A DNA stretch of 64,000 nucleotides from Octopus vulgaris (lineage: Eukaryota): positions 39,246,001 to 39,310,000 of the forward strand of contig OX597820.1 in the NCBI GenBank assembly GCA_951406725.2, in the 5' to 3' direction. The number at the start of each line of letters is the position of its first letter. Position 1 is the first letter of the stretch. The position numbers and the translations under genes were made by a program. The notes beneath the pieces are model-generated. The model did not search any database, was not told the DNA's origin, and worked only from the letters and a program-made list of their open reading frames with translations. Positions 4,384 to 62,410 of this stretch are shown one piece after another.

Positions 4384-4434
<51 letters not shown>

Positions 4435-4855
4435 TAGCATTAAAGACCCGTCGTTGCCGGGTCATAGTGCTAGTGCATGTATATATGTGTATATATATGT
4501 GTACATATTACATGTACATCTATATATATACATCTACACATAAAATGCAAAATACAAAGTTATATCTTGATATCGCTAGTGATAACAATACTCAAAATAT
4601 ATAACAGACTGGAATTGTCTTATTATTACCCACAAGGGGCGAACATAGAGGGGACAATACAATCTGATGTGGGGTCAGATATACGAATGGGTTTACAAAA
4701 AAGGCGAATTTAAGAGTTTACAAAAATTACAAAAATAGAAAAAATCGAATGGAGAACAGACCGGAAGACATTACGGATGGAGTGGGAGCGGGTTTAGCTT
4801 GGACCCCACGAGCCCTGCCTCCCCACTGATACTTTGGTTTCGTCTATGTTTACAT

Positions 4856-5944
4856 TTATGTGGTATCATCCACTCGCAACTTTCGTGCTACATCTTTCCA
4901 TCGTTCTTCATACACTCTCTTAGTCAGGCATTTTCTCTCCAGCCCTATCTTCCTTTTCAGGTGAAAAATGAAGTAATTCATCAAACCAGGGCCGGAGATG
5001 AACTTGCCTGACCGTAAACCTTTCATTCTCGTCTTCCATATCACCTCTTTCGCAATTGCTACTACAACGAGAAAACAATTCTTACCTTCTTTCGCGAGGA
5101 AATCTGGTGGGTCAATTTTTGTAATAGACTCAGTCGACAGCTGTACTCTTCGTGTGCTTGACAACAGCTGTTCGGCATAAACCCACACCTCAGACACGAC
5201 CGAACAATGAACAATAGCGTGCGGGACGGTTTCCCTATCCCGCTCGCAACTTGGACATATCGGACTGTCTTGGCCACCGTGCCTTGCGAGTTTAGCCCGA
5301 ACAGGTAGAGCTCCTCTGTAGCATTGCCATGCCAGAGACTTCTGGAAGTTGTCCAGTGTCTTCGGCTCGAACGTATGTCGGAACAGACTGGCCAGCTGAT
5401 TATCGTCGAGACCTAGGGTTTCCCCCAAGGTATCTTCACATTCCGCCTCTACCAACCCTCTATAGAAGAATGTGGTGGAACCCCCACCGCAGCCGTTGCC
5501 CGAGCGACGGAATAGCAGGAGAGCCTTGCGACACTCCGTGTACCATGTGCCCAGTTTCGATCTACGATTCAGCCAGGTTTCCCATCCACCGAAACTAGTG
5601 AACTTGGGAAACATCAGTTTTGCTAGCGGAGACCACACCCGTTCACCATCCAGGTAGAGCCACAGATGTCTTAACCTCAGCGCATGTCTGCGCATCATCA
5701 GCCAAGGCATCCCTAGCCCACCCTTTAACGGTTGTTGACAGCAAGTAGAGCGTTTCACAAGTGGTTTCCCGCCCTTCCACAAGAAGTAGAAGAGCTGTCT
5801 TTCCAACTTGATCAACCACGAATCAGGGCAAGGAACGACGGAAAGGCGGTAGGTGATAACCGATGCGATAAACACATTGGCTACCTCCGCCCTCCCTTTC
5901 AGGGATAGCCACCGCCAAGACCAGGTCTTGGTTACTGCAGCCAC
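4856..5944 (-). pseudogene. LINE ORF2 C-terminal segment (post-RT region plus zf-RVT-like CxxC...HxxxxC)
   Basis: WSWRWLSLKGRAEVANVFI, FLWKG, GGLGMP, CPSCERDRETVPHAIVHC and IWKTR are typical of L1/Tx1 ORF2 C-termini. Confidence 0.9.
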
Positions 5945-6107
5945 CCTGCTCGATACCTCGCCTCAATTCTTCTCTATTTGGAGGTCTGGACAGAACCAAA
6001 CCCCTAGCAACTTAATCGGACCTTCCGTCCAACGTCCCACGACGCTGTCAGGAGGCATCGACTTGCCTCTTCAGGTACCGAGTTGCAAGCCGACTGACTT
6101 TTCGCGA

Positions 6108-6767
6108 TTAACTTTTTGCTCCTGTCACCGTCTCGTAAACCTCTATGGCCTTGCCTACTTTACGTAGGTGATCCATTTCGGTTACGATGATGGTGATGTC
6201 ATCCGCGTACGCTGACACCGATTTTCCACTACCTGGCTGTCTCGGGATGCCGCTCAGTTTTCGCAGTAATGGCTCAAGAGCCATCACGTACAAAATCGGG
6301 GAGAGCGGACACCCTTGACGAACCGAGCGCTTGATGTTGAACGGCTTCGACAAGAAGCCGTTCACCCGAACTACCGAGTCGATGTTCTCGTAAATTTGGA
6401 TAATCCACCTGAGGAAGCCAAGGCCCAGCCCGAACTGTGCCAGGGCAGATACCAGGTAGCGATGGTCGACCCTATCGAATGCTTTAGATTGGTCTAAATG
6501 GACCAGTTCCCCACCCTTGCCAGAATCACTATTAAACCCCTCTATAGTGTACCGCATAAGATGGAGATTATCCTGAATGGTTCTGCCGGGAACGGCACAT
6601 GGCTGTGCCTCCCCGATCAGACCATCTGCGACACGCGCCAATCTTTTCGATAAAACTTTGGCCAAAATCTTCAACTCTGTGTTTAGCAGAGTGATGGGCC
6701 TGAAATTATCAATGCACTCCCCCTTGCTCGGGTCCTTTCTGACGAGTGTCACTACTCCCCGGCGCAC
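6108..6767 (-). pseudogene. LINE ORF2 reverse transcriptase core
   Basis: NFRPITLLNTELKILAK, LDQSKAFDRVDH, VRQGCPLSPILY and AYADD. Frameshifts on both sides. Confidence 0.96.
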
Positions 6768-6870
6768 AGATCTGGGTATTAACCCGTTCTGCTGCCAGTT
6801 CGCATAGACCTCCCCAGTGGGTGCCCGAACAAGTCTGGCATACTCTTATATAACTCATAGGGTAGACCAT

Positions 6871-8079
6871 CTAAACCCGGCGCCTTGCCCACGCCGCAGT
6901 CCGCCATCGCTTCAACCACCTCCCCAGGCGTGATTGGCCCTTCACAGCCCTCCGCATCTCGCCCCGATAAAGCGCGGCAGCCTGTCGAAGGAGGTCCGTA
7001 AAGGCCCTCCTCCTATCCAGTCCGCTGCACTCACCGAAAAGCTGAGCGAAGTGCTCCTGAAAGGCCTCACACATCTGGTTTAACGCCGGTCTCTTGGCCG
7101 TCACCTGAACCGCAGAGCCAGTTTTCAAGGCTTCCTCTAATTCCTTAACTACAGTAGATTCCCTCCTAACCTCTCTAGCCACTAATCCTATGCTATATCT
7201 AATAGACTCGAATTTGATGGCTCGCTTGAGGGCATACCACCATTTGTTATTAATGATGGCACCAGATAGCGCCCTCTGGATTATTGTCCTAATCCGGTCT
7301 CTGTACTCCTTAATCGCCAAAAGGGACGTATTAAGTTTCCAGTAACCGGAGCCCCTATTTTTAACCTTATCTATGTCAAGCTTACAGGTGACCATTTTAT
7401 GATCACTGTAGCTGACCAGGTAAAACTTTGGACACTTAGCTATTTTTCTGTCTACTTTTCTAATTAATATCCTATCTATAAATGACCTGGAAGATCCGTC
7501 GCTGTTTGACCATGTCCACAATGGAGCGTTCGGAAATTCCAACCTATAAGGATCTGCTAGCTCAAAGTGGCTTAGCAGTTCCAGGAAGCCAATGTTACCT
7601 TTTCTATCTGGACGCAAGCCAACACAATCTACATCCGTTTTGCAAATTGTGTTAAAGTCTCCTAGCACAACTAATGAATGCGAAGTACCAAGAAAGTTTT
7701 CCAGTTCTCGAAAATAATCACTTTGCCCTTTTTGGTTGGGTGTGTAAATTGCAACCAGTCTGATAACTTTACCGTTACCGAACGTCAAATCCATGACGAC
7801 CAGCCTACCTTCTGGGTCTGAAAAAATTAACTTTTTCTCAAAAACCCGGTTTCTTTTTAATAGGACCAATACCCCACCCCCGCCTGTAGGACTGGCCGGA
7901 GAGAAAAAACTCTCGTAGCCGTCAAACAGTGGGAGTAGACCTCTTGGCCCCTCTAACCGGGTTTCTGTAGCAACAATAACATCCAAATTACGCGACCTTA
8001 TATCATTAAGGAAGCGACATTGCTTCCAGCTTGATCCCAGGCCGCACACATTTAAACAACCAACATAAATGCAATCCAT
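6871..8079 (-). pseudogene. LINE ORF2 apurinic-like endonuclease domain and linker
   Basis: LNVCGL, ATET, AIYTPN, LGDFN, WTWSN...SFIDRIL, SDH and GSGYWKLNTSLL. Confidence 0.95.
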
Positions 8080-8271
8080 GACTTACCTTATATCAGTAGT
8101 TCGACTTGTTCGACTTGTTTTTCTTCTTCTTCTTCACTTTTATTTTTTTCCTGGGTTCGTGGGGGAGTCCGACGCAGGCCCTCGTATAAATATGGAGATA
8201 TGTCCAATCTCAGAGGGCCCACGTCGTGAAAGAATTCGGATTTTATCCGTCCGTAATCCTTCCGGCCTATT

Positions 8272-9453
8272 CTATAAACAATACAAGTCTTTTGTTTTTT
8301 TAATTTTCTCCACCTTGGCCATGGCTGCCAAAACGTTAATTAGCCTGTTGTTGGCAGCCTTAATGGCCATAAATGTATTCGTCGCTTCTTTCCTCTTTTT
8401 TTGGCTCTCTTTCTGAGGGGTGGTTTCTGTTTTCCGTTTTTTTGGGGGGTAATTTTTGACCACCCCTCCTCTTTTTCCTTTTCTTCACCACTTGTTGTTT
8501 CTGTTGCTTCTTTGGTTTCTGTAGTTTCTGGTGTTTTCTCTTCTGTTTTCTCTTCTGTTTTTTCTTTTTCTGGCGGTGCTGCTTCCTGCGGTCTAGGTTG
8601 GCACTCCGCTCTCACGTGCCCTTTTTTACCGCAGCCGAAGCACCTCGGCTTTCTGCCCTCCACAAACACAAACACCCTCTCCTCCTCGCTGATCCTCAAT
8701 ATCTCTGGAATTTCTTCCAACGTCTGGACCTCCGCCTGTATCGCCATTGAGATGCATTGACCTTGCCAATACTCCTCCTCCTCTACTGTAGCCTGGAGGA
8801 TAGTGATCTTGTCCTCCAGGCCTAACAACACTGCCACCACTAGGCATGTGGCATCCGCTTCTGGCGGAATATTTTTTATTAATATTCTTGAGGTCCTTCT
8901 GCCTCTGTACAGGGGGAGGAGGATTATATTCTCCGCTTTTAGAGGTTCGGTTGATAGCTTCTTGGCTATCTCCTCAGTCCTGAACCTCACCTCAGCCGTT
9001 CCAAATTTTCTGCCACGGTTTATATACGTGATGTCCTTCCATATTGTCTTTAGACAATTCTCGATTTTTTCTCTTCCACTCTTTGAATGGTTTTCATCGT
9101 CGTATTGTATGTTTTGTAAATAATCCTTCTGTTATCTACTTCCTCTGTCTTTTTGACGTCTGGTATCACTGTTACTTCATTACCTTCCTTTTTCAAACAT
9201 GCTGCATATTTTTCTAAGTTGCTTTTATCCGTGTTGATTTTTTTCTGTTTTTTCCTGCAACTTCTGCGAACTTCTTCGCTGGGGCTTCTTCTATTTTCGG
9301 CGTCACCGCCGGTGAAATTTCTTCCCCTGATACAGGTGAATAGGAGATTGGAGTCTCCATCTCTGGATGGGCCTTTTCAATTGGCTTTAACAAGCCTTCA
9401 AAAAAAGAATTCTGGCTTCGCAAGCCTTTTATGTGTATTTTAAACTGTTGCAC
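8272..9453 (-). pseudogene. LINE ORF1 (Gag-like nucleic-acid-binding protein with CCHC knuckle), frameshifted
   Basis: Pieces at 9214-9453, ~8990-9220, 8340-8990 and 8272-8463. VEGRKPRCFGCGKKGHVRAEC (CX2CX4HX4C) is followed by an E/K/T-rich tail. Confidence 0.88.
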
Positions 9454-9634
9454 AATAATTGTTTCACAACAATTCCCCCGCAGGGGGGAATTTTAATACG
9501 TAGCCTTCGCGCGAAGGCTAATAACAGTTTTACACAAAATACACAATATATAAAACAAAGTAACAATAATTAACTTAACAAACCGGTAATAAACAGCAAT
9601 CGACAAAACAGACTGGCGTATAACAGACTGGAAT

Positions 9635-11549
9635 TGTTTTATTCCTACCCACAAGGGGCAACATAGAGGGGACAATACAATCGGGAAAAATAAAATAATG
9701 AATTATGAAGTTTGTACAATGTGGTGTAATGCCCACTCGATCCCCGAAATCGAGCGGTTACATTTCGTCATTTTTTTATTACGTCAACAATATTTTCCAA
9801 ATAAAAACATTTTACACATTTTCAACAAACATTTCAACAATCTTAGAAAGTTCAACGTATTTTTTTTCAGAATTTAAAGTTCTTTTTATCATTTCCAAAT
9901 TAAAGTTTTCACAATACCTTTTCTTTTATATATACTCCATTATCTCTACCAAATCTTGGTAAATTTCCATCATTCGTGGCCACCTTGTAAGTCGGCATTT
10001 CATATGTTTTGACACGTTCTTGCCAGCTGCCTCGATGAACGCCTCAGCGTCGTTCTCGTGGACGAGTGCACCCGTTTCTTTCCATTCGGTGCCCATCCTG
10101 ACCCACGTATATCCATTTGTTACGTTTATTAAATCTTCCATCTCCTCACAGTGCCTGTGATGGATCAATGTTCCATAGTATTTGAATTTTCTATTCGTAC
10201 CTGCATTTTCTCTAGTTTTTCTCTTAGGACTTACTTCCTCTTTTTTCTCCTCTCTCGGTTTCTCTCTTTCTCTCTTTTTGCTTTCTCTTCTTTCTTTTTC
10301 CTTCTCTTGTCTTTTTGGCTCTTTGTCTGTCGTCTCTCTACCCTGTGCCTTATGTTCCTTTCCTGTTGTTTCTTTTCCTTTTTGCATACCATCTTTTCCT
10401 TTCTCTTGGTTCTGTCCCTTCTCTTGTTCTTTTCCTGTTTTTTCTCTTTCCTTTAATGTACTTTCCTTTTCTTTCTCTTGCTTCTGCCTTGGCTCCTTCT
10501 CCACTACTTCTCCACCCTGTGAATTTTGTTCCTTTTCTACTATCTTCTTCCCTTTGTTTTCATTGTCCTTCAGTGCGCTGTTACTTCCCTTCTCTTGTAG
10601 TTTCTCCGTTATTTCCTTTTCCTTGTTTTCGCTGTTCTTTCCTTCGTGTTCTTTTTCCTTCTCTCCACTTTGTGTCTCTTTTTGCTCCGCTGTGAATTCA
10701 TACAGCGGACATTCCTTTTTTATGTGCCCTCTTGACCCGCACAAGTAGCAATTCGGTTTTCTCCCCTCCACAATTACACTAATTGTTTTCTCGTTTTCTA
10801 TTTCTATTTGGAAGGGAAACCTTTCGATATCTTCCATTGTGGCCATCAGCCACAACTCTACTCCGAATCCCTTCCAATTTACAACGTTGCTCTCCTTGAC
10901 TGACCCTATTTCTACTTCCTCCTTTGCTGACCCTAGAATGGCTGTTACCAGCATTTCTGTTTTTATTTCTGGGGGCACCTTTGGGACTCTTACCCGTACC
11001 CCTCGTCTTCCTTTATACGTCGGCCACATAGTGAAATTTTCGGCTTTCAAACAGTGGAAGCTAATGAGGCCGCCACTTCCTTTGTTGCGCATCTCACCTC
11101 CACCGTACCATATTTCTTACCTCTGTCTACAAAAGTCGCTTTTTTCATAATGTCCCCCAGACATTTCTCTATTTCTTCAATCGTCACTCTCACCAGTTTT
11201 CTCGTGTTCCTATATTGCGTTCTATACGTTATCGTCTTGTTATTTCTCTCCTCTATTGTTTCAACAGGCGGGACCAGCTTCACGCTGTCACCCTCCCTTT
11301 TGACGAACTTCTCGTATTCCTTCAATTGTTCTTTTCTAAAGAACACTTCTCTTATTCTAAGAGACTCATCCCTTTTTGTTGTGGCGACCCCCGTGTAAGT
11401 CTTCATGACTAAGGGGTCAACACACCTTCTATAAAAGGTTCAAACACGCAGCGGCAGACGCCTCGTGCGATTCAATTTTTTGACAATTTTTTAACAGTTT
11501 TTTTTCCAAATTTTTCACATACAAAATAACTAACCAACACACTCAATGA
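9635..11549 (-). mobile_element. ORF1-only non-autonomous retroelement ('half-Tx1'), copy 1
   Basis: Consists of a short 5' UTR, one Gag-like ORF and a 3' UTR ending in the LINE-like tail. No APE or RT. Bounded by AGACTGGAAT (9625-9634) and AGACTGCAAT (11550-11559). Confidence 0.88.
9926..11406 (-). CDS. ORF1/Gag-like CCHC protein (~490 aa reconstructed), one frameshift near 11050
   Basis: ORFs 11047-11406 and 9926-11092 join when compared with copy 2. Contains VEGRKPNCYLCGSRGHIKKEC, a long K/E/Q-rich linker and a ~85-aa C-terminal domain (FKYYGTLIHHRHCEEMEDL...EIMEYI). Confidence 0.8.
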
Positions 11550-11559
11550 AGACTGCAAT

Positions 11560-13489
11560 TGTTTTATTCCTACCCACAAGAGGCAACATAGAGGGGACAA
11601 TACAATCGGGAAAAATAAAATAATGAATTATGAAGTTTGTACAATGTGGTGTAATGCCTATTCGATCCCCGAAATCGAGCGGTTACATTTCGTCATTTTT
11701 TATTCGTCAACAATATTTTCCAAATACAAAACCTTTTACACATTTTCAACATACATTTCAAAAATTTTAGAAAGTTCAACATTTTTTTTTTCAGAATCTA
11801 AAGTACTTTTTATCATTTCCAAATTAAAGTATTCACAATACCTTTTCTTTTATATATACTCCATTATCTCTACCAAATCTTGGTAAATTTCCATCGTTTG
11901 TGGCCACCTTGTAAGTCGGCATTTCATATGTTTTGAGACGTTCTTGCCAGCTGCCTCGATGAACGCCTCGGCGTTGTTCTCGTGGACGAGTGCACCTGTT
12001 TCTTTCCATTCGGTGACCATCCTGACCCACGTATATCCATCTGTTTCGCTTATTAAATCTTCCATCTCCTCACAGTGCCTGTGATGGATCAATGTTCCAT
12101 AGTATTTGAATCTTTTATTCGTACCTGCATTTTCTCTAGTTTTTCTCTTAGGACTTACTTCCTCTTTTTTCTCCTCTCTCGGTTTCTCTCTTTCTCTCTT
12201 TTTGCTTTCTCTTCTTTCCTTTTCCTTCTCTTGTCTTTTAGACTCTTTGTCTGACGTCTCTCTACCCTGTGCCTTATGTTCCTTTCCTGTTGTTTCTTTT
12301 CCGTTTTGCATACCATCTTTTCCTTTCTCTTGGTTCTGTTCCTTCTCTTGTTCTTTTCCTGTTTTTTCTCTTTCCTTTAATGTACTTTCCTTTTCTTTCT
12401 CTTGCTTCTGCCTTGGCTCCTTCTCCACTACTTCTCCACCCTGTGAATTTTGTTCCTTTTCTACTATCTTCTTCCCTTTGTTTTCATTGTCCTTCAGTGC
12501 GCTGTTACTTCCCTTCTCTTGTTGTTTCTCCGTTATTTCCTTTTCCTTGTTTTCGCTGTTCTTTCCTTCGTGTTCTTTTTCCTTCTCGTTTTTGTTCTCT
12601 CTCCACTTTGTGTCTCTTTTTGCTCCGCTATGAATTCATACAGAGGGCATTCCTTTCTTATATGCCCTCTTGACCCGCAGAAGTAGCAATACGGTTTTCT
12701 CCCCTCCACAATTACACTAATTGTTTTCTCGTTTTCTATTTCTATTTGGAAGGGAAACCTTTCGATATCTTCCATTGTGGCCATCAGCCACAACTCTACT
12801 CCGAATCCCTTCCAATTTACAACGTTGGTCTCCTTGATTGACCCTATTTCTACTTCCTCCTTTGCTGACCCTAGAATGGCTGTTACCAGCATTTCTGCTT
12901 TTATTTCTGGGGGCACCTTTGGGACTCTTACCCGTACCCCTCGTCTTCCTTTATACGTCGGCCACATAGTGAAATTTTCGGCTTTCAGTTCAGTGGAAGC
13001 TAATGAGGCCGCCACTTCCTTTGTTGCGCATCTCACCTCTACCGTACCATATTTCTTTCCTCTGTCTACAAAAGTCGCTTTTTTCATAATGTCCTCCAGA
13101 CATTTCTCTATTTCTTCAATCGTCACTCTCACCAGTTTTCTCGTGTTCCTATATTGCGTTCTATACGTTATCGTCTTGTTATTTCTCTCCTCTATTGTTT
13201 CAACAGGCGGGACCAGCTTCACGCTGTCACCCTCCCTTTTGACGAACTTCTCGTATTTCTTCAATTGTTCTTTTCTAAAGAACACTTCTCTTATTCTAAG
13301 AGACTCATCACTTTTTGTTGTGGCGACCCCCGTGTAAGTCTCCATGACTAGGGGGTCGACACACCTTCTATAAAAGGTTCAAACACGCAGCGGCAGACGC
13401 CTCGCGCGATTCAATTTTTTGACAATTTTTTAACAGTTTTTTTTTCCAAATTTTTCACATACAAAATAACTAACCAACACACTCAATGA
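11560..13489 (-). mobile_element. ORF1-only non-autonomous retroelement ('half-Tx1'), copy 2
   Basis: Colinear, highly similar copy of 9635-11549 with scattered substitutions. The right boundary is AGACTGGAAT (13490-13499). Confidence 0.88.
11850..13345 (-). CDS. ORF1/Gag-like CCHC protein, one frameshift near 12590
   Basis: ORFs 12533-13345 and 11850-12428. Contains VEGRKPYCYFCGSRGHIRKEC. A 14-nt extra segment (cgtttttgttctct) relative to copy 1 shifts the frame. Confidence 0.8.
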
Positions 13490-14170
13490 AGACTGGAATG
13501 TTAGCTCTTCTTTTTTCTCTACATTGTATACTTTATAGACAATAGTCTTTTCTTTAATCGAATTTTTTATTATCCATCTGGACTATTCCATTTCTGCACG
13601 CTAATTTTATTTTTAATTTAATTCCCATTCATGTGAAACCACTTATTCAAGTTCAAATCATTGATGCAATTTTATACCAATTGCTATTTTTACTTATATT
13701 ATACTTTAGTTTGATTTTAATTATTACTTACTACATATAATCCAATTGTTATTATTATTTTTATTGTTAAAGTGAAAGCATCTGACATAAAAATAGAGAA
13801 ATATTTTTGTTTCACTTTTAACACGTAATACTGAAATAGTGGAGAAGATATGATATTGCTATGGGCTCGCTCTAGGCAAGAAGTTGAACATTTTGTTTGC
13901 CCATGAAAGTACATTGACCCTAAGTAAGGTATGTGTAAAATTTGAATGAAATTGGTTGTGTAGTTCTCAAGTTTTAGGGAATCGTAGTGGAAAAGAAATG
14001 ATATTATTGTGGGCTTGCCCTAGACAAAAAGTTAAATTTTTTTGCCGATAACACTCCCCGGACCCTAAGTAAGGCATATGTAAAATTTGAATGAATTTGG
14101 TTTTGTAGTTCTCAAGTTTTAGGGAAACACACAGACAGACAGACACATATTCTCAGTTTTATATATATAA

Positions 14171-14223
<53 letters not shown>

Positions 14224-23092: not shown

Positions 23093-23237
23093 AAAAGCAA
23101 TAAAGATTCAAGTCAATTTTAATGAATTTACTTGAATATGGTACCTAACTTAGATGCACCAAAAAACTATACGGTTTTAACAATACAGTAATGTGGGGTG
23201 ATTATAAGCGAGAAAGAAGCAACAAGAATGGATAAGT

Positions 23238-23328
23238 TTTTAGTACAATCGTTTCATACAAAGACAGGCTTTATTAAAAGTTGCAAAAATTGCAGCATAT
23301 AAACGTGTCCCGTACTCATCAGCTAAAA
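23238..23328 (-). ncRNA. Type I hammerhead ribozyme (left-arm copy)
   Basis: Reverse complement of 24648-24738. Confidence 0.8.
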
Positions 23329-24647
23329 TACATGTGAGTTCTCTAGACATCTTAGTGGTTGAGGCTATACTCATGAAGTAATGTAGATAATTAAGTAACA
23401 TAAACAGATTTCCAAAGTTCATTAAAGTTCTTTAAAGATGATGTACAGTCTTATCACAGATTTTTAAAAAAGTTTTAATAGCATCACAGAGAAGGTGACT
23501 TAATCCATAGTGTACATATGAATTTCCAGAGATATGAGGAGGGATTACATACTCACAGACGACAAATTTATCCATGGCTAATCACAACGAGGTGGGTATC
23601 AATTCCTGCTTATTAGCATTACAGAGAGGGTGAATTAATCCTTTGTATAGGTGCACAATTTCCAATGGTGTAGATGTAAATTTCCAGAGAAATGAAGAGG
23701 AATTTCATATTCACAGACGATAAATTTATCAATGGTTTAACACAATGAGGTAGGTATCAATTCTTGCTATATGATTAGGTATTTGCCACATTAATCACAT
23801 TACTGCTATTTTCAAGAGACTGTAGCTATTTAACTTTTAAAGGCTGAAGGGCTTTCTAGAGAGGCAAAGAACAGAAAGGGAAGGAAAGAGAGGAAAAGAG
23901 AGAAAATAAAGGAGGAGGGAGCAAAAGGGGGGGACTAAAAGAGAAGAGAAAAGGAAAAAGAAAAAAAGAAAATAGAGAATAAGAAGAAGAAAAAGAAAAA
24001 GAGAAAAGAGAAAGAAAAGAAAGAGGGAAAGAAGGGAGAAAAGAAAAAGAAAAAGAGGGTTCTAGTTATACAGAAGAATTTCTCTCTTTTCCTCTCTTTC
24101 CTTCCCTTTCTGTTCTTTGCCTCTCTAGAAAGCCTTTAAAAGTTAAATAGCTACAGTCTCTTGAAAATAGCAGTAATGTGATTAATGTGGCAAATACCTA
24201 ATCATATAGCAAGAATTGATACCTACCTCATTGTGTTAAACCATTGATAAATTTATCGTCTGTGAATATGAAATTCCTCTTCATTTCTCTGGAAATTTAC
24301 ATCTACACCATTGGAAATTGTGCACCTATACAAAGGATTAATTCACCCTCTCTGTAATGCTAATAAGCAGGAATTGATACCCACCTCGTTGTGATTAGCC
24401 ATGGATAAATTTGTCGTCTGTGAGTATGTAATCCCTCCTCATATCTCTGGAAATTCATATGTACACTATGGATTAAGTCACCTTCTCTGTGATGCTATTA
24501 AAACTTTTTTAAAAATCTGTGATAAGACTGTACATCATCTTTAAAGAACTTTAATGAACTTTGGAAATCTGTTTATGTTACTTAATTATCTACATTACTT
24601 CATGAGTATAGCCTCAACCACTAAGATGTCTAGAGAACTCACATGTA

Positions 24648-24738
24648 TTTTAGCTGATGAGTACGGGACACGTTTATATGCTGCAATTTTTGCAACTTTT
24701 AATAAAGCCTGTCTTTGTATGAAACGATTGTACTAAAA
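24648..24738 (+). ncRNA. Type I hammerhead ribozyme (right-arm copy)
   Basis: TTTTAG-CTGATGA-GTACGGGACA...TGTCTTTGTAT-GAAA-CGATTG-TA-CTAAAA. Helix I is TTTTAG/CTAAAA, helix II is GU-rich with a long loop, helix III is the quasi-palindrome ACGATTGT, and the triplet is GUA. Confidence 0.8.
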
Positions 24739-24766
24739 ACTTATCCATTCTTGTTGTTTCTTTCTT

Positions 24767-48846: not shown

Positions 48847-48914
48847 TCCTTTCTACAAGGAGGTAAGGTAAGTGTTTCATTGGTGCTTAATTTATCGACC
48901 CCAGAAGGATGAAA

Positions 48915-49360
48915 GTCTTCGCAGCCCATTTCTGGGTAAGACTGGCCGCCCTGTTTGCCACTTCGTCCCAGTTTTTATTGGGACGAAATCAGATCCCGAG
49001 CAGTTTAACTGGCCCGTCGGTCCAGCGTCCTACGACCGTCCGATGGCATCGACCTGCCTCTCTAGGAGCCCAACCGCAAACCCACAGATTTGCAGGCGTT
49101 TTATTTTTAGCCTTTGCAACCGACTCATATCCCTTTAGGATAGTACCAACCGTCTCCACTTCGGAGGCATCCGACACCATTACGATGGCATCGTCCGTGT
49201 ATGCACACACTGCCCTTCTGTATCCCACTTCGAAGGGGATGCCTCAACTGTTCCAACTTACGCAGCAGTGGCTCGAATGTCAATACCTACAGAAGAGGCG
49301 AGAACATGCAACCCTGACGGATGGAGCGTGCGATGCCAAACGGTTCCGAACCTAGTACGG
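48915..49360 (-). mobile_element. Diverged Tx1-like RT fragment
   Basis: AVCAYTDDAIVMVSD...GYESVAKAK...VVGRWTDGPVKLLGI, homologous to 5980-6330 of the long LINE. Confidence 0.85.
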
Positions 49361-56740: not shown

Positions 56741-58015
56741 TCGTTAAATGAAATTAAATAACGTTATATGAGTGACGTTACATGGCGTTGAATGACGTTA
56801 AATGACGATCAAATGATGTGAACTTAAATTACATTAAATGACGTTAAATGACGTGACGTTAAACGACGTAAAATAACGTTAAATAATGTTACGTTAAATG
56901 TCGTTAAATGACGCTACATGACGTGACGTTAAATGGCCTAAACTGACGTTAATTGACGTGGCGTTAAATGACGTTAAATGATGTCATATTAAATGAAGTT
57001 AAATTAGGTGACGTTAAATGACATGACGTTAAATGACGTTAATTGACGTAGCGTTAAATAGGTTGAATAACGTTAAATGACGTGACGCTAAACGACGTTA
57101 AATGACATGACGTTAAATGACGTGATGTAAAATGACGTTAAAGGACGTTATATGGGTGACGTTAAATTACGCTAATTGACGTGACGTTAAATGACGTTAA
57201 TTGACGTAACGTTAAATGGAGTTGAATAAAGTTAAATGACGTGACGGTAAATGGCGTTAAATGACGTCAATTTAACGTCATTCATGTAATGTCATTTAAC
57301 GTCATTTTATATCACGTCATTTAAAGTCCTTTAACGTCCCTTAACGTCATTTAACCTCATGTCTTTTAACGACATTTAGCGTCACGTAACGTCACGTCAT
57401 TTAGCGTAATTTAGCGTCACCCATATAACGTCAATTAACGTCATTTTACATCACGTCATTTCACGTCATTTAAAGTCACGTTATATGAGTGACGTTAAAT
57501 TACGCTAAATGACATGACGTTAAATGACCTTAATTGATGTAAGGTTAAATGGCGTTGAATAAATTTAAATGACGTGACGGTAAATGACGTTAATTTAACG
57601 TCACTCATGTAATGTCATTTAACGTCATTTTACATCATGTCATTTAAGGACCTTTAACGTCATTTAACGTTACTTAACGTCACGTCATTTAGCGTAATTT
57701 AACGTCACCTATATAACGGCATTTAACATCATTTTACATCACGTCATTTAACGTCATGTCATTTAACGTCATTTAAGGTCGTTTACCGTCACCTCATTTA
57801 AAGGTTATTCAACGCCATTTAACGTTACCTCAATGAACGTCATTTAACGTCATCCATATAACGTCATTTAACATCATTTTACATCACGTCATTTAGCGTA
57901 ATTTATCGCCATTTAACGTCGCTTATCATCACGTTATTTAACGTCAATCAACGCCATTTAACGCTACGTCAATTAACGTCATTTAACGTCACGTCATTTA
58001 GCGTAGTTTATGTCG
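56741..58015. repeat. AAATGACGTT-based satellite, block 1, with internal inversions
   Basis: 10-bp core with 5-bp variants. Orientation flips near 57268, 57480 and 57592. Confidence 0.93.
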
Positions 58016-58233
58016 CCTAAGTTATGTCTATAGCTTGTCTATAGTTCTGTCTATAGTTTTAAACTATAGTTTTGCCTGTAGTTTGCCATAGAAATTTCAA
58101 CCTATAGTTTTAGCCTATAGTTTGTCTATACATGATCCATAGATTTTAATGATTTTTCTATAGTTCTGCCTATAGTTTTAGCCTATAGTCTTGCCCATAC
58201 TTTGCCTATATTTTGCCTATAGATTTAGCCTAT
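58016..58233. repeat. (G/T)CTATAGTTTT-based minisatellite
   Basis: Units of 11-13 bp with a palindromic CTATAG core. Confidence 0.9.
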
Positions 58234-58655
58234 ACATTCCAGATATTTCGGACATTACCGGCATTCCAGACATTCCGAACATCCCAGCCATACCAGATAT
58301 TCCAGACATTCCAGTCATTTCACCTGACTAATAAAATACAGTTCGCCAAAAGCAAGCCATAAAATAGCAGACATTTCACAATTCTAGACATCACCGGTAT
58401 TACAAACATTCCGGACATTCCACACATTCCATACATTCCAGACATTCCACATATTCCAGGTATTCCAGGCATTCCAGAATGACATTCCAGAATGACATTC
58501 CAGACATTCCACGCATTCCTGACGTTCCTTTATATGACGTGACAATAAATTCCATTCCATGTCGTGACAAGACGTGACATTCCATTTTATTCAAAGACGT
58601 GAAATGACGTGACATTCCATGACGTTCCAGATATTGAGGTATTCCACACACCCGA
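58234..58655. repeat. GACATTCCA-based 9-bp minisatellite
   Basis: Repeated gacattcca variants. They produce the ECL/ECV pseudo-ORF. Confidence 0.88.
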
Positions 58656-58659
58656 GGTA

Positions 58660-61600
58660 TTAAATGACGTAACGTTAAATGGCTTTAAATGACGTAATGA
58701 TAAACGACGTTAAATGACGTGATGTAAAATGACGTTAAATGACGTTATATGGGTGACGTCATTTAACGTCATGTCATTTAACGTCGTTTACCGTCACGGC
58801 ATTTAACGTCATTGAACGCCATTTCACGTTACGTCAGTTAACGTCATTTAACGTCACTCATGTAATGTCATTTAACGTCATTTTACATCACGTCATTTAA
58901 CGTCCTTTAACGTCATTTAACCTCAAGTCGTTTAACGTCATTTAACGTCGCTTACCGTCAAGTCATTTGGCGTAATTTAACGCAACACATATAACGCAAT
59001 TTAACGTCATTTTACATCACGTCATTTATCGTCATTTAACGTCATGTCATTTAACGTCATTTAACGTCGTTTAACGTCCTTTAACGTTATTCAACGCCAT
59101 GTAACGTAATGTCTATTAACGTCATTTAACGTTACGTCATTTAGCCTAATTTAACGTCACACATATATAGTCATTTAACGTCATTTTAAATCACGTTATT
59201 TAACGTCATTGAACATCATGACATTTAACGTCATTTAACATCATTTACCGTCACGTCATTTAACGTCATTTAACGTCATTTTAAATCACGTCATTTAACG
59301 ACACATCATTTAACGTCACGTAATTTAGGGTAATTTATCGTCACACACATATAGTCATTTAACGTCATTTAACGTCATTTAACGTCATGTCATTTAACGT
59401 CATTTAACATCGTTTAACGTCATTTAACGCCATTTAGCGTTGCGTCAATTAGCGTCATTTAGCGTCACGTCATTTAGCGTCACGTCATTTAGCGTAACTA
59501 AACATCACCCATATAACAACATTTAACGTCATTTTACATCACATCATTTAGTGTCATTTAACGTCACGTCATTTAACGTATTTTAATGTCACCCATATAA
59601 CGTCATTTAACGTCATTTAACATCATGACATTTAACGTCATGTAACGTCGTTTACCGTCAAGTCATTTAACGTCATTTTAAATCACGTCATTTTACGTCA
59701 TTTAACGTCATGTCATTTAACGTCATTTAACGTCGTTTACCGTCACATCAATTAACGTCATTTAACGTCACGTCATTTAGCGTAACTTAACTTCACCCAT
59801 ATAGCGTCATATAATGTCATTTTACATCACGTCATTTGACTTCATTTAACGTCATTTAACGTCATTCAACGTCACGTCATTTAGCGTATCTTAACGTTAC
59901 CCATATAACGTCATTTAACGTCATTTTACATCACCTCATTTAACGTCATTTAACATCATGACATTTAACGTCATTCAACGTCGTTTACCGTAACGTCATT
60001 TAACGTCATTAAACGTCATTTTAAATCACGTCATTTAACGTCATGTCAGTTAACGTCACTTAACATCGTTTACCGCTGTATCATTTAATGTCATTTAACG
60101 TCACGTCATTTAGCGTAATTTAACATCACACATATAAATGACGTCATTTAACGTCATTTTAAGTCACGTTATTTATCACGTCATGTCATTTAACGTCATT
60201 TAACGTCGTTTAACGTCATTCAACGTCGTTTACCATCACTTCATTTAATGTCATATAACGTCATTTACCGTCGTTTGACGTCATTCAACGCCATTTAGCG
60301 TTACGTCAATTATCGTCATTTAGCGTTACGTCATTTAACGTAACTTAACGTCACCAATATAACGTCATTTAACGTCATTTTACATCACGTCATTTAACGT
60401 TATTTATCGTCATTTTACATCACGTCATTTAACGTCATTTAACATGACATTTAACATCATTTAAAGTCATTTAACCTCATTTAACGTCATTTTAAATCAC
60501 GTCATTTAACGTCAGTTAACGTCATGTCATTCAACGTTGTTTACCGTCGTTTACCGTCACATCAGTTAACGTCTTTTAACGTCAAGTCATTTAACGTCAT
60601 TTAACGTCGTTTACCGTCACGTCATTTAACGTCACGTCATTTAGCGTATTTTAACGTCACACATATAACGTCATTTAGCGTCATTTTACATCACCTCATT
60701 TAACGTCATGTCATTTAACGTCATTTAACGTCGTTTACCTTCACATCATTTAAGGTCATTTAATGTCATTTTAAATCACATCATTTAACGTCATTTAATG
60801 TAATTTTAAATCACATCATTTAACGTCATTTAGCGTCATGTCAGTTAACGTCACTTAACGTCGTTAACCGTCACATCATTTAACGTCATTTAACGTCATT
60901 TAGCGTAATTTAACGTCACACATATAAAGATAGTTAACGTCATTTAACGTCATGTCATTAAACATCATTAATGTCGTTTAACGTCATTCAACGCCATTTA
61001 ACTTTACGTCAATTAGCGTCATTTAGCGTCACGTCATTTAGCGTAACTTAATGTGACCCATATAACGTCATTTAACGTTATGTTACATGACGTCATTTAA
61101 CATAATTTAACGTCATGACATTTAACCTCATTTAACGTCGTTTAGCGTCACGTCATTTAACGTCATTTTAAATCACGTCATTTAACGTTATGTCATTTAA
61201 TCTCATTTAACGTCATTTCACGTCGTTTACCATCACATCATTTAACGTCATTTAACGTCACGTCATTTAGCGTAATTTAACGTCACATGTATAAAGTCAT
61301 TTAATGTCATTTTAAATCACGTCTTTAACGTCATTTAAAGTCATGTCATTTAACGTCATTCAACGTGGTTTAACGTCATGCAACGTCATTTACCGTCATG
61401 TCATTTAACGTCATTTAACGTCACGTCATTTAGCTTAAATTAACGACACCCATGTAACGTCATTTAACGTCATTTTACATCACGTCATTTAACTTCGTTT
61501 AACGTCATTTAACGTCGTTTACCATCACGTCATTTAACGTCATTTAACGCCATTTTAAATCATGTCACATAACGTCATTTAAAGTCATTTAACGTCGTTT

Positions 61601-62410
61601 ACAGTCACATCATTTAACGTCACGTTATTTAGCGTAATTTATCGTCACACATATATAGTCATTTAACGTCATTTTAAATCACGTCATTTAACGTTGTTGC
61701 CCGTCACATCATTTAACGTCACGTCATTTAGCGTAATTTATCGTCACATATTTATAGTAATTTAACGTCAATTTATATCACGTCATTTAACGTCATCTCA
61801 TTTAACGTCATTTAACGTCATTCAACGCCTTTTAACGTTACGTCAATTAACGTCATTTAGCGTAACTTTACCTCACCCATATAACATCATTTAACGTGAT
61901 TTTACATCAAGTCATTTCATGACATGACGCTAAATGACGTTAATGACTTGATGTAAAATGACGTTAAATGACGCTATATGGATGACGTTAAGTTACGCTA
62001 ATTGACGTAACGCTAAATGACGTTAATTGTCGTAACGTTAAATGGCGTTGAATGACGTTAAACGACGTTAAATGACTTTAAATGAGATGACGTTAAATGA
62101 CGTTAAATGACGTAATTTAAAATGACGTTTAATGACTATAAATGTGTGACGATAAATTATGCTAAATGATGTGACGTGAAATGACGTTAAATGATGTGAC
62201 GGTAAACGACGTTAAATGACGTGATTTAAAATGACATTAAATGACTATGTATGTGTGACGATAAATTACGCTAAATGACATTTAACGTCATTTAACGTCA
62301 TTTAACGTTATTTACTGTCACATCATTTAACGTCATTTAACGTCACGTTATTTAGAGTAATTTAACGTCACCCATATAACGTCATTTAACGTCATTTTAC
62401 ATCACGTCAC
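58660..62410. repeat. AACGTCATTT-based satellite, block 2, with higher-order units and inversions
   Basis: Recurring higher-order landmarks (tagcgtaatttaacgtcacccatataacgtc, ttttacatcacg, ttttaaatcacg, gtttaccgtcac). Orientation flips near 58757, 61919 and 62280. Confidence 0.95.

What the first reader, a model, noticed from the sequence alone, without database searches (positions are those of the whole stretch)
4600..13499. Three retroelements stacked head-to-tail at one target sequence, AGACTGGAAT
Seen: the same short sequence marks all four junctions: TATAACAGACTGGAAT (4600-4615), TATAACAGACTGGAAT (9619-9634), AGACTGCAAT (11550-11559) and AGACTGGAAT (13490-13499). All three elements have the same orientation, and each 3' tail joins at the same position of the motif. 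The LINE's own 5' end also carries a target-like stretch (AACAGACTGG, 9607-9616). Known: many Tx1-clade elements are sequence-specific. Inference: the endonuclease recognises ATTCCAGTCT. TSD formation, or an element 5' end that contains the motif, regenerates the target, so mixed arrays of autonomous and ORF1-only elements can grow.
Basis: partly seen in the sequence, partly recalled or inferred. Interest (0 to 1): 0.8.

Follow-up and report, generated by a model that had tools for sequence, protein, structure and literature searches.

The report
Octopus retroelements stacked at one site
In an octopus genome, a broken full-size retrotransposon and two shorter relatives that lack their own copying enzyme sit head-to-tail at one duplicated landing site inside a small DNA transposon; this stacking is known from other animals, but the short partner family looks undescribed.

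Summary
On the minus strand lie E1 (4616-9618), a decayed L1/Tx1-type LINE, and E2 and E3 (9635-11549, 11560-13489), two ORF1-only elements 97% identical to each other. All three share a ~49-nt 3' tail. E1 has an exact 16-bp target-site duplication, so it integrated separately, at the same base as the short family.

The four motif copies are one original site plus its duplications, not four independent targets. Real support for specificity is narrower: two different families used one base, and one contig joint in a public run shows a second locus with 14 of 15 matching letters before an E2-type 5' end.

The short elements belong to a multi-copy family with Octopus ORF1 relatives (two RRM-like domains, one CCHC knuckle). 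E2 and E3 share variants absent from the bulk family, so E3 may be a local duplicate. New here: the whole stack sits inside a non-autonomous Helitron-like element (4434-14173).

Stacking around a duplicated target inside a DNA transposon is published for crocodilian Tx1-Mar/SINEU-3. An ORF1-only partner in this lineage was not found in my searches. Genome-wide flanks could not be tested.

The parts
4434..14173 (-). Non-autonomous Helitron-like host element, about 850 bp without the inserts, lying between A and T in a (TA)n tract
   Evidence: 5' A|TC at 14174-14172, (CTGT)n at about 14127-14146, 3' CTAG|T at 4437-4433. Features as described in PMC4344730 (passages). No second copy in the window.
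4445..4463 (-). Helitron-type 3' hairpin GACCCG...CGGGTC, 7 nt before the terminal CTAG
   Evidence: DNA fold of 4430-4480, -11.9 kcal/mol; no shuffle control
4600..4615 (-). 3' copy of E1's 16-bp target-site duplication, ATTCCAGTCTGTTATA
4616..9618 (-). E1: full-length, decayed L1/Tx1-type LINE (5,003 bp)
4616..4664 (-). Shared 3' tail of E1, 49 nt, 90-92% identical to the E2 and E3 tails; no poly(A)
4856..8082 (-). E1 ORF2 in pieces: APE endonuclease (6871-8082), RT (6108-6845), C-terminal zf-RVT part (4856-5962). Deletion of about 150-180 bp near 7050-6970; frameshifts near 6813 and 6113
   Evidence: Pfam PF03372, PF00078, PF13966 above cut-off; tblastn with relatives; table 4
8340..9376 (-). 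E1 ORF1 remnant in two frames; 39% identical over 157 aa to E3 ORF1
9607..9618 (-). E1 5' end: two extra letters CG, then CCAGTCTGTT, a 10-nt match to the target
   Evidence: Whether this is the family's 5' end or a slip at this one insertion is not known.
9619..9634 (-). 5' copy of E1's 16-bp duplication; also the 3' flank of E2
9635..11549 (-). E2: ORF1-only element (1,915 bp). ORF1 from ATG 11406 to stop 9926 (about 490 aa), frameshift near 11052; tail 9635-9682
11550..11559 (-). Junction copy of the target with one change, ATTGCAGTCT
11560..13489 (-). E3: ORF1-only element (1,930 bp), 54 substitutions and 19 gap columns from E2. ORF1 from ATG 13345 to stop 11850, frameshift near 12600; two RRM-like domains, CCHC knuckle, long K/E-rich tail
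13490..13504 (-). 5'-most target copy with its upstream context, CTAAC^ATTCCAGTCT
   Evidence: 14 of 15 letters match the second locus table 5c
13837..14126 (.). Two 145-bp tandem copies (82% identical) inside the Helitron-like element

Best explanation
An L1/Tx1-type retrotransposon machinery with a preference for a short sequence (about CTAAC^AWTCCAGTCT) hit one site inside a non-autonomous Helitron at least twice. Inferred steps: the APE endonuclease nicks the window's plus strand at AGACTGGAAT/GTTAG; RT copies an RNA recognised by its ~49-nt tail; a staggered second cut duplicates 10-16 bp, which leaves an intact target at the 5' side of each new insert. Shown: E1 carries its own 16-bp duplication, so it integrated separately from the short family, and both families end at the same base. 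E2 and E3 are ORF1-only elements moved in trans by an ORF2 of E1's kind (inferred from the shared tail and the absence of RT). The third unit is either a third insertion from the same source lineage or a local duplicate of the second; I put these about even.
For: 16-bp exact repeat flanking E1 only. E1 and E3 ORF1 are 39% identical with unrelated 5' UTRs, so they came from different RNAs. From rough depth ratios, a same-base double hit by these two families is expected 2e-7 to 4e-6 times per genome if insertion is random, and 0.2-3.5 times if it is confined to about 6,200 10-mer sites. Second locus: a contig joint in run X2 (11555 to 4620, depth 285) puts CTAACAATCCAGTCT before an E2-type 5' end (table 5c); chance of the 8-9 letters outside the shared end is 2e-4 to 8e-4. 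E2 is covered end to end in 4 of 4 runs, and named Octopus ORF1 relatives exist. Published precedent for sequential insertion sandwiching a duplication (PMC4494074; 10.1101/158386).
Against: Only one outside locus supports the motif, and I picked it from 12 shown of 96 rows of table 5c. In that contig the neighbouring tail ends about 19 letters before the presumed nick, at a site without the motif. Another joint (5425 to 4623, runs X2 and X12) has a tail running into ORF2-like sequence without the motif. In X1, 96 contigs leave the tail at 4623 into mixed A/T-rich flanks (agreement 0.49); these pool many families at 80% likeness. E2 and E3 share 6 of 13 alleles that differ from the contigs. 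Counting all L1-Tx1 insertions, 0.07-1.1 chance coincidences per genome are expected. Depth is not a copy number.
Confidence: 0.62

Rival explanations
1. Two insertions only (E1 and one short element). E2 and E3 arose afterwards by DNA-level tandem duplication across the 10-bp repeats, or were homogenised by local conversion. This is compatible with the best explanation and replaces only its third step.
For: 6 of 13 scorable sites where nearly all contig depth differs from E2 are shared by E3 (14 sites listed, 1 fell in a gap). One of them (E to D) is also absent from 4 of 5 protein relatives. ORF differences look neutral: 9 synonymous, 26 non-synonymous, pN/pS 0.70, p=0.23. Both copies have the same 5' and 3' junctions.
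Against: The sites come from the 40 best-supported of about 2,800 differences. Two of the six are covered only by low-depth contigs, one is a CpG change, and X1 (80% read) hardly covers two others. A small source lineage gives the same pattern. The second locus has the same 5' junction, so identical junctions do not need duplication.
Confidence: 0.47
2. The real target is a site within a multi-copy Helitron family, as Tx1L uses Tx1D and Tx1-Mar uses Mariner-N4. The motif is only the local sequence of that host.
For: The stack lies inside an element with all Helitron terminal features. Tx1 families that target DNA transposons are published (PMC4494074). A 15-mer is expected only about 7 times by chance in 2.8 Gb, so long specificity would need a multi-copy host.
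Against: The second locus matches only 5 letters upstream of the nick and then differs from the Helitron flank. No other copy of this Helitron is in the window, so it is unknown whether the site is a conserved part.
Confidence: 0.25
3. CCAGTCT is simply the elements' own 5' end (an initiator-like start). The endonuclease has only a weak A/T preference and the stacking is a local hotspot or chance.
For: CCAGTCT stands at E1's 5' end and before both short elements. It fits the YYANWYY initiator consensus (recalled). Bulk tail flanks are mixed.
Against: It does not explain why the host flank at 4600-4615 carries the motif, nor the shared CTAAC upstream at two loci, nor the same-base hit by two low-copy families.
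Confidence: 0.15
4. One integration event with RT jumping from one RNA to the next made the whole array.
For: Same orientation, all units full-length.
Against: The E1/E2 junction holds 16 bp of host flank, including GTTATA, which is not in E1's own 5' end. Jumping leaves no internal target copy. It remains possible for E2/E3 alone if their RNA starts inside the motif.
Confidence: 0.06
5. E2/E3 is an assembly artefact (two haplotypes written in tandem).
For: High similarity; no contig spanned the locus.
Against: 2.8% substitutions, separate indels in each copy and a distinct junction sequence.
Confidence: 0.03

Closest known systems
Tx1-Mar with SINEU-3 in Mariner-N4_AMi, crocodilians (PMC4494074; passages and section 16 read)
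   Same: A Tx1-type LINE and a non-autonomous partner share a site inside a non-autonomous DNA transposon; tandem copies sandwich a target duplication and are read as sequential insertions.
   Different: Here the partner codes for ORF1 and shares the LINE's tail; the host is Helitron-like; preference for the host is unproven.
Tx1L in Tx1D, Xenopus (as described in PMC1950540 and PMC4494074, passages)
   Same: APE-type LINE inserted at a fixed site in a DNA transposon.
   Different: Tx1L specificity is shown biochemically; here it is inferred from two loci.
HAL1, HeT-A and Ag-Sponge, the ORF1-present non-autonomous LINEs (PMC5786205 and PMC5753468, passages; the HAL1 paper itself was not available)
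   Same: ORF1 only, no RT, 3' end like an autonomous LINE.
   Different: Those derive from mammalian L1, Jockey and CR1. E2/E3 have an RRM+CCHC ORF1 related to an octopus L1/Tx1-type LINE, 39% identical to the neighbour's ORF1.
Double-insertion tandems of TEs and the R1 array in Drosophila (10.1101/158386, passages)
   Same: An element with a site preference that duplicates its target regenerates the site, forms head-to-tail dimers, and these can expand by unequal exchange.
   Different: Here the array mixes two families and all units are full-length.
Non-autonomous animal Helitrons such as Hel-2 (PMC4344730, passages)
   Same: 5' TC, (CTGT)n near the 5' end, 3' hairpin, CTRR end, A|T insertion.
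   Different: No sequence relationship tested; copy number unknown.

Membership tests
L1-group non-LTR retrotransposon (E1) | N-terminal APE endonuclease, RT and C-terminal zinc-binding region in ORF2 | tested here: met
   best solved matches are human L1 ORF2 for both EN (E 2e-11) and RT (E 3e-23, ahead of R2)
L1-group non-LTR retrotransposon (E1) | Upstream ORF1 and a target-site duplication | tested here: met
Tx1 clade | RT groups with named Tx1 references | tested here: inconclusive
   Tree of 33 RTs: E1 groups with Argonauta (94/91), and more distantly with turtle and hagfish RTs. No named Tx1 element was available as a reference.
Tx1 clade | Type I ORF1 (RRM plus CCHC) rather than mammalian Transposase_22 | tested here: met
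   Model pLDDT 91.8 with two RRM-like domains and PF00098 for E3; PMC5203782 links such ORF1s in non-mammalian animals to Tx1. E1's own CCHC is below cut-off.
Target-specific Tx1 family | More than 20% of copies share a flank type (criterion of PMC4494074) | not testable with these tools
   No genome held; contig summaries show only a few flanks
Target-specific Tx1 family | Target is a multicopy RNA gene or microsatellite | tested here: not met
   No Rfam match over the site, no tRNA; a transposon target remains open
ORF1-present non-autonomous LINE (E2/E3) | ORF1 only; no EN or RT | tested here: met
ORF1-present non-autonomous LINE (E2/E3) | 3' tail shared with an autonomous LINE | tested here: met
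   49 nt, 90-92% identity
ORF1-present non-autonomous LINE (E2/E3) | Multi-copy family, not a single deletion product | tested here: met
   Covered end to end in 4 of 4 runs at depth about 70-630 times that of low-depth contigs (rough); Octopus vulgaris relatives at 80-91% in the matched part
HAL1 proper | Derived from mammalian L1 (Transposase_22 ORF1) | tested here: not met
   it works like HAL1 but is not one
Non-autonomous Helitron (host) | 5' TC, 3' CTRR, 3' hairpin, insertion between A and T | tested here: met
   features
Non-autonomous Helitron (host) | Dispersed copies with the same ends | not testable with these tools
   None in the window; no genome held

The most novel reading that the evidence does not exclude
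Octopus carries a 'half-Tx1' family: ORF1-only, hundreds of copies, moved by a sequence-specific L1/Tx1 endonuclease. Its target core CCAGTCT is also the first sequence of both the autonomous and the short RNA. The duplicated target would then supply the transcription start and the 5' joining homology, while the tail end (...AAACA) mimics the upstream flank (...CTAAC). Every tail-to-head junction would be a new target, and a Helitron could carry such stacks around.
Probability: 0.22. Interest if true: 0.68.

Novelty: new variant of a known kind. Interest (0 to 1): 0.42.

Why it matters
It adds a likely further independent origin of ORF1-only LINE parasites, in a lineage and an animal group where my searches found none described. 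It also gives a precise candidate cut site for an octopus APE endonuclease, which a flank census and a nicking assay can test directly. If the target doubles as the elements' own 5' end, it would link targeting, promoter supply and array growth in one short sequence. The stacking itself is an expected result of site preference plus target duplication.

Tried and rejected
No whole genome is held, so no flank census. Exact tail patterns found nothing in metagenome, viral or prokaryote contigs. 80 metagenome loci were distant (best RT segment at most 47% identical) with no tail similarity, and 5 scattered motif hits that I did not follow up. ORF1 search among longer proteins gave nothing; the HMMER search found it (436 hits). 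No RNA holder was listed, which says nothing on expression. An RNA-gene target was rejected. Earlier scan notes: nothing by sequence, words or place. The ESM Atlas gave only generic zf-RVT clusters. Three consecutive O. vulgaris accessions with one ORF1-like protein (CAI9739099-101) could be a tandem array or isoforms, so I do not count them. The tail fold is weak (-6 to -7.5 kcal/mol, no control). Literature: searches returned no paper whose listing or read passages describe an ORF1-only Tx1 element or a Helitron-targeting Tx1. Repbase entries, Kojima and Fujiwara 2004 and Bao and Jurka 2010 could not be read and may hold such cases. The O. vulgaris repeat paper lists 80 L1-Tx1 and 84 Helitron families, but its supplement has no sequences (PMC13282606; first third of the text and the supplement read).
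Full report
OBSERVATION. The four motif copies and the fifth partial copy are at the stated coordinates. The exact 10-mer occurs three times in the window, always at a junction. With one mismatch there are 14 matches against 4.5 expected. Read on the minus strand the order is: flank ...GAGCTAAC, ATTCCAGTCT, E3, ATTGCAGTCT, E2, ATTCCAGTCTGTTATA, E1, ATTCCAGTCTGTTATA, flank. The motif copies are one site plus its duplications, so their number is not evidence of specificity.

THE LINE. E1 (5,003 bp) has an APE endonuclease, RT and zf-RVT region, all above Pfam cut-off. The best solved relatives are human L1 ORF2. The closest named RT by identity is from Argonauta hians (61%), and E1 groups with it in a tree of 33 RTs. 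Named ORF1 relatives are all Octopus, so the host is an octopod. ORF2 is broken by a deletion of about 150-180 bp and two frameshifts. No named Tx1 reference was available, so clade membership rests on architecture: an RRM+CCHC ORF1, which PMC5203782 links to Tx1 in non-mammalian animals (passages).

THE SHORT ELEMENTS. E2 and E3 differ by 54 substitutions and 19 gap columns. Each holds one ORF of about 490 aa with a frameshift, and no EN or RT. The N-terminal 244 aa fold with pLDDT 91.8 into two RRM-like domains followed by a CCHC knuckle. This ORF1 is 39% identical to E1's over 157 aa. At DNA level the only match between E1 and the short elements is the 49-nt tail. Contigs of 4 of 4 public runs cover E2 from end to end, at about 70-630 times the depth of low-depth contigs, against 14-36 times for E1's 5' part (depth is not a copy number). 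O. vulgaris proteins match at 80-91% over part of the ORF, and a sister group of 7 proteins ends in a similar C-terminus. So this is a real ORF1-only family, in the manner of HAL1, HeT-A and Ag-Sponge (PMC5786205, passages).

THE HOST SITE. The flanks are the ends of one element: 5' A|TCTTTATATATATAAAA at 14174-14157 with a (CTGT)n tract, and a 3' hairpin followed by CTAG|T at 4463-4433, both inside (TA)n. These are the features given for non-autonomous animal Helitrons (PMC4344730, passages). No RNA gene overlaps the site.

HOW MANY INSERTIONS. The 16-bp repeat flanks E1 alone and includes host letters absent from E1's own 5' end, so E1 integrated by itself. The short family used the same base. 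That gives at least two events by different RNAs. Whether E3 is a third event is open. Of 14 sites where almost all contig depth differs from E2, one fell in a gap; E3 sides with E2 at 6 of the other 13 and with the contigs at 7. These sites are the best-supported 40 of about 2,800, and several are weakly covered. Differences in the ORF are 9 synonymous and 26 non-synonymous, not distinguishable from neutral, and both copies carry private changes. Local duplication and a double insertion from one source lineage both fit. On the scale in PMC13282606 (JC 0.09 = 25 My) the pair split about 4 My ago (rough).

EVIDENCE ON SPECIFICITY. For: a same-base hit by these two families is expected 2e-7 to 4e-6 times per genome at random, and 0.2-3.5 times if insertions use about 6,200 10-mer sites. 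One contig joint in X2 (depth 285) shows an E2-type 5' end preceded by CTAACAATCCAGTCT, 14 of 15 letters as at 13490-13504; beyond that the flank differs (table 5c). Matching tail variants at 11561 and 11569 in all four runs suggest the same junction there (inference from table 3). Against: that joint is 1 of 12 rows shown out of 96. Its neighbouring tail ends at a site without the motif, as does the tail in joint 5425-4623. In X1, 96 contigs leave the tail into mixed A/T-rich flanks (agreement 0.49), though these pool many families. Depth at the tail-to-5' junction is 0.4-10% of body depth, so stacks are the exception. Over all L1-Tx1 insertions, 0.07-1.1 chance coincidences per genome are expected.

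MECHANISM. Most likely target-primed reverse transcription from a nick at AGACTGGAAT/GTTAG on the plus strand, with the tail as the RT recognition signal and ORF2 supplied in trans to the short RNA (inferred from known L1-group biology). Each event duplicates the target and leaves a complete site 5' of the new insert. CCAGTCT also begins E1 after two extra letters and directly precedes both short elements. It may be the RNA start (initiator-like, recalled consensus), which would make the 10-bp duplications partly element sequence and explain the identical 5' junction at two loci. It may instead be a one-off slip at E1. The order E1 then short element is the simplest but is not shown.

COMPARISON. 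Tx1 elements that target DNA transposons, with non-autonomous partners stacking around a duplication, are published for Tx1-Mar and SINEU-3 (PMC4494074), and Tx1L in Tx1D is biochemically specific (PMC1950540, passages). Regeneration of targets by double insertion is a described general route to tandems (10.1101/158386, passages). My searches turned up no ORF1-only Tx1 family and no Helitron-targeting Tx1, but Repbase and key subscription papers were out of reach.

VERDICT. Real feature; known stacking mechanism; probably an undescribed ORF1-only partner family with a plausible, partly supported target. New variant of a known kind, interest 0.42.

Noticed in passing
window 23211-23845 and 24131-24765: 635-bp inverted repeat, 100% complementary, around a 285-bp G/A-rich spacer that ends in a further inverted piece. 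Could be a long-read assembly palindrome or a recent fold-back.
   Followed up: partly
window about 56800-62300: Satellite of 10/15/25-bp units (TTAAATGACG type) present in both orientations.
   Followed up: no
window 48857-49355, minus: Old internal RT fragment of a related L1/Tx1-type family (up to 52% to P0019), no shared tail, ending beside a (TTC)n tract.
   Followed up: partly
table 5c, joint 11555 to 4620 in X2: By eye, the 29 letters between the two sides partly resemble an inverted copy of E2's 5' end; not tested, may be chance.
   Followed up: no
proteins P0156, P0284-P0289: Sister ORF1 group in O. vulgaris, about 60% identical to E2 in the C-terminal half; one sequence has three consecutive accessions (tandem copies or isoforms).
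   Followed up: partly
window 9720-11400 table 2: E2-family depth relative to E1's 5' part differs about eightfold between runs (highest in X2), hinting at lineage-specific expansion of the short family.
   Followed up: partly
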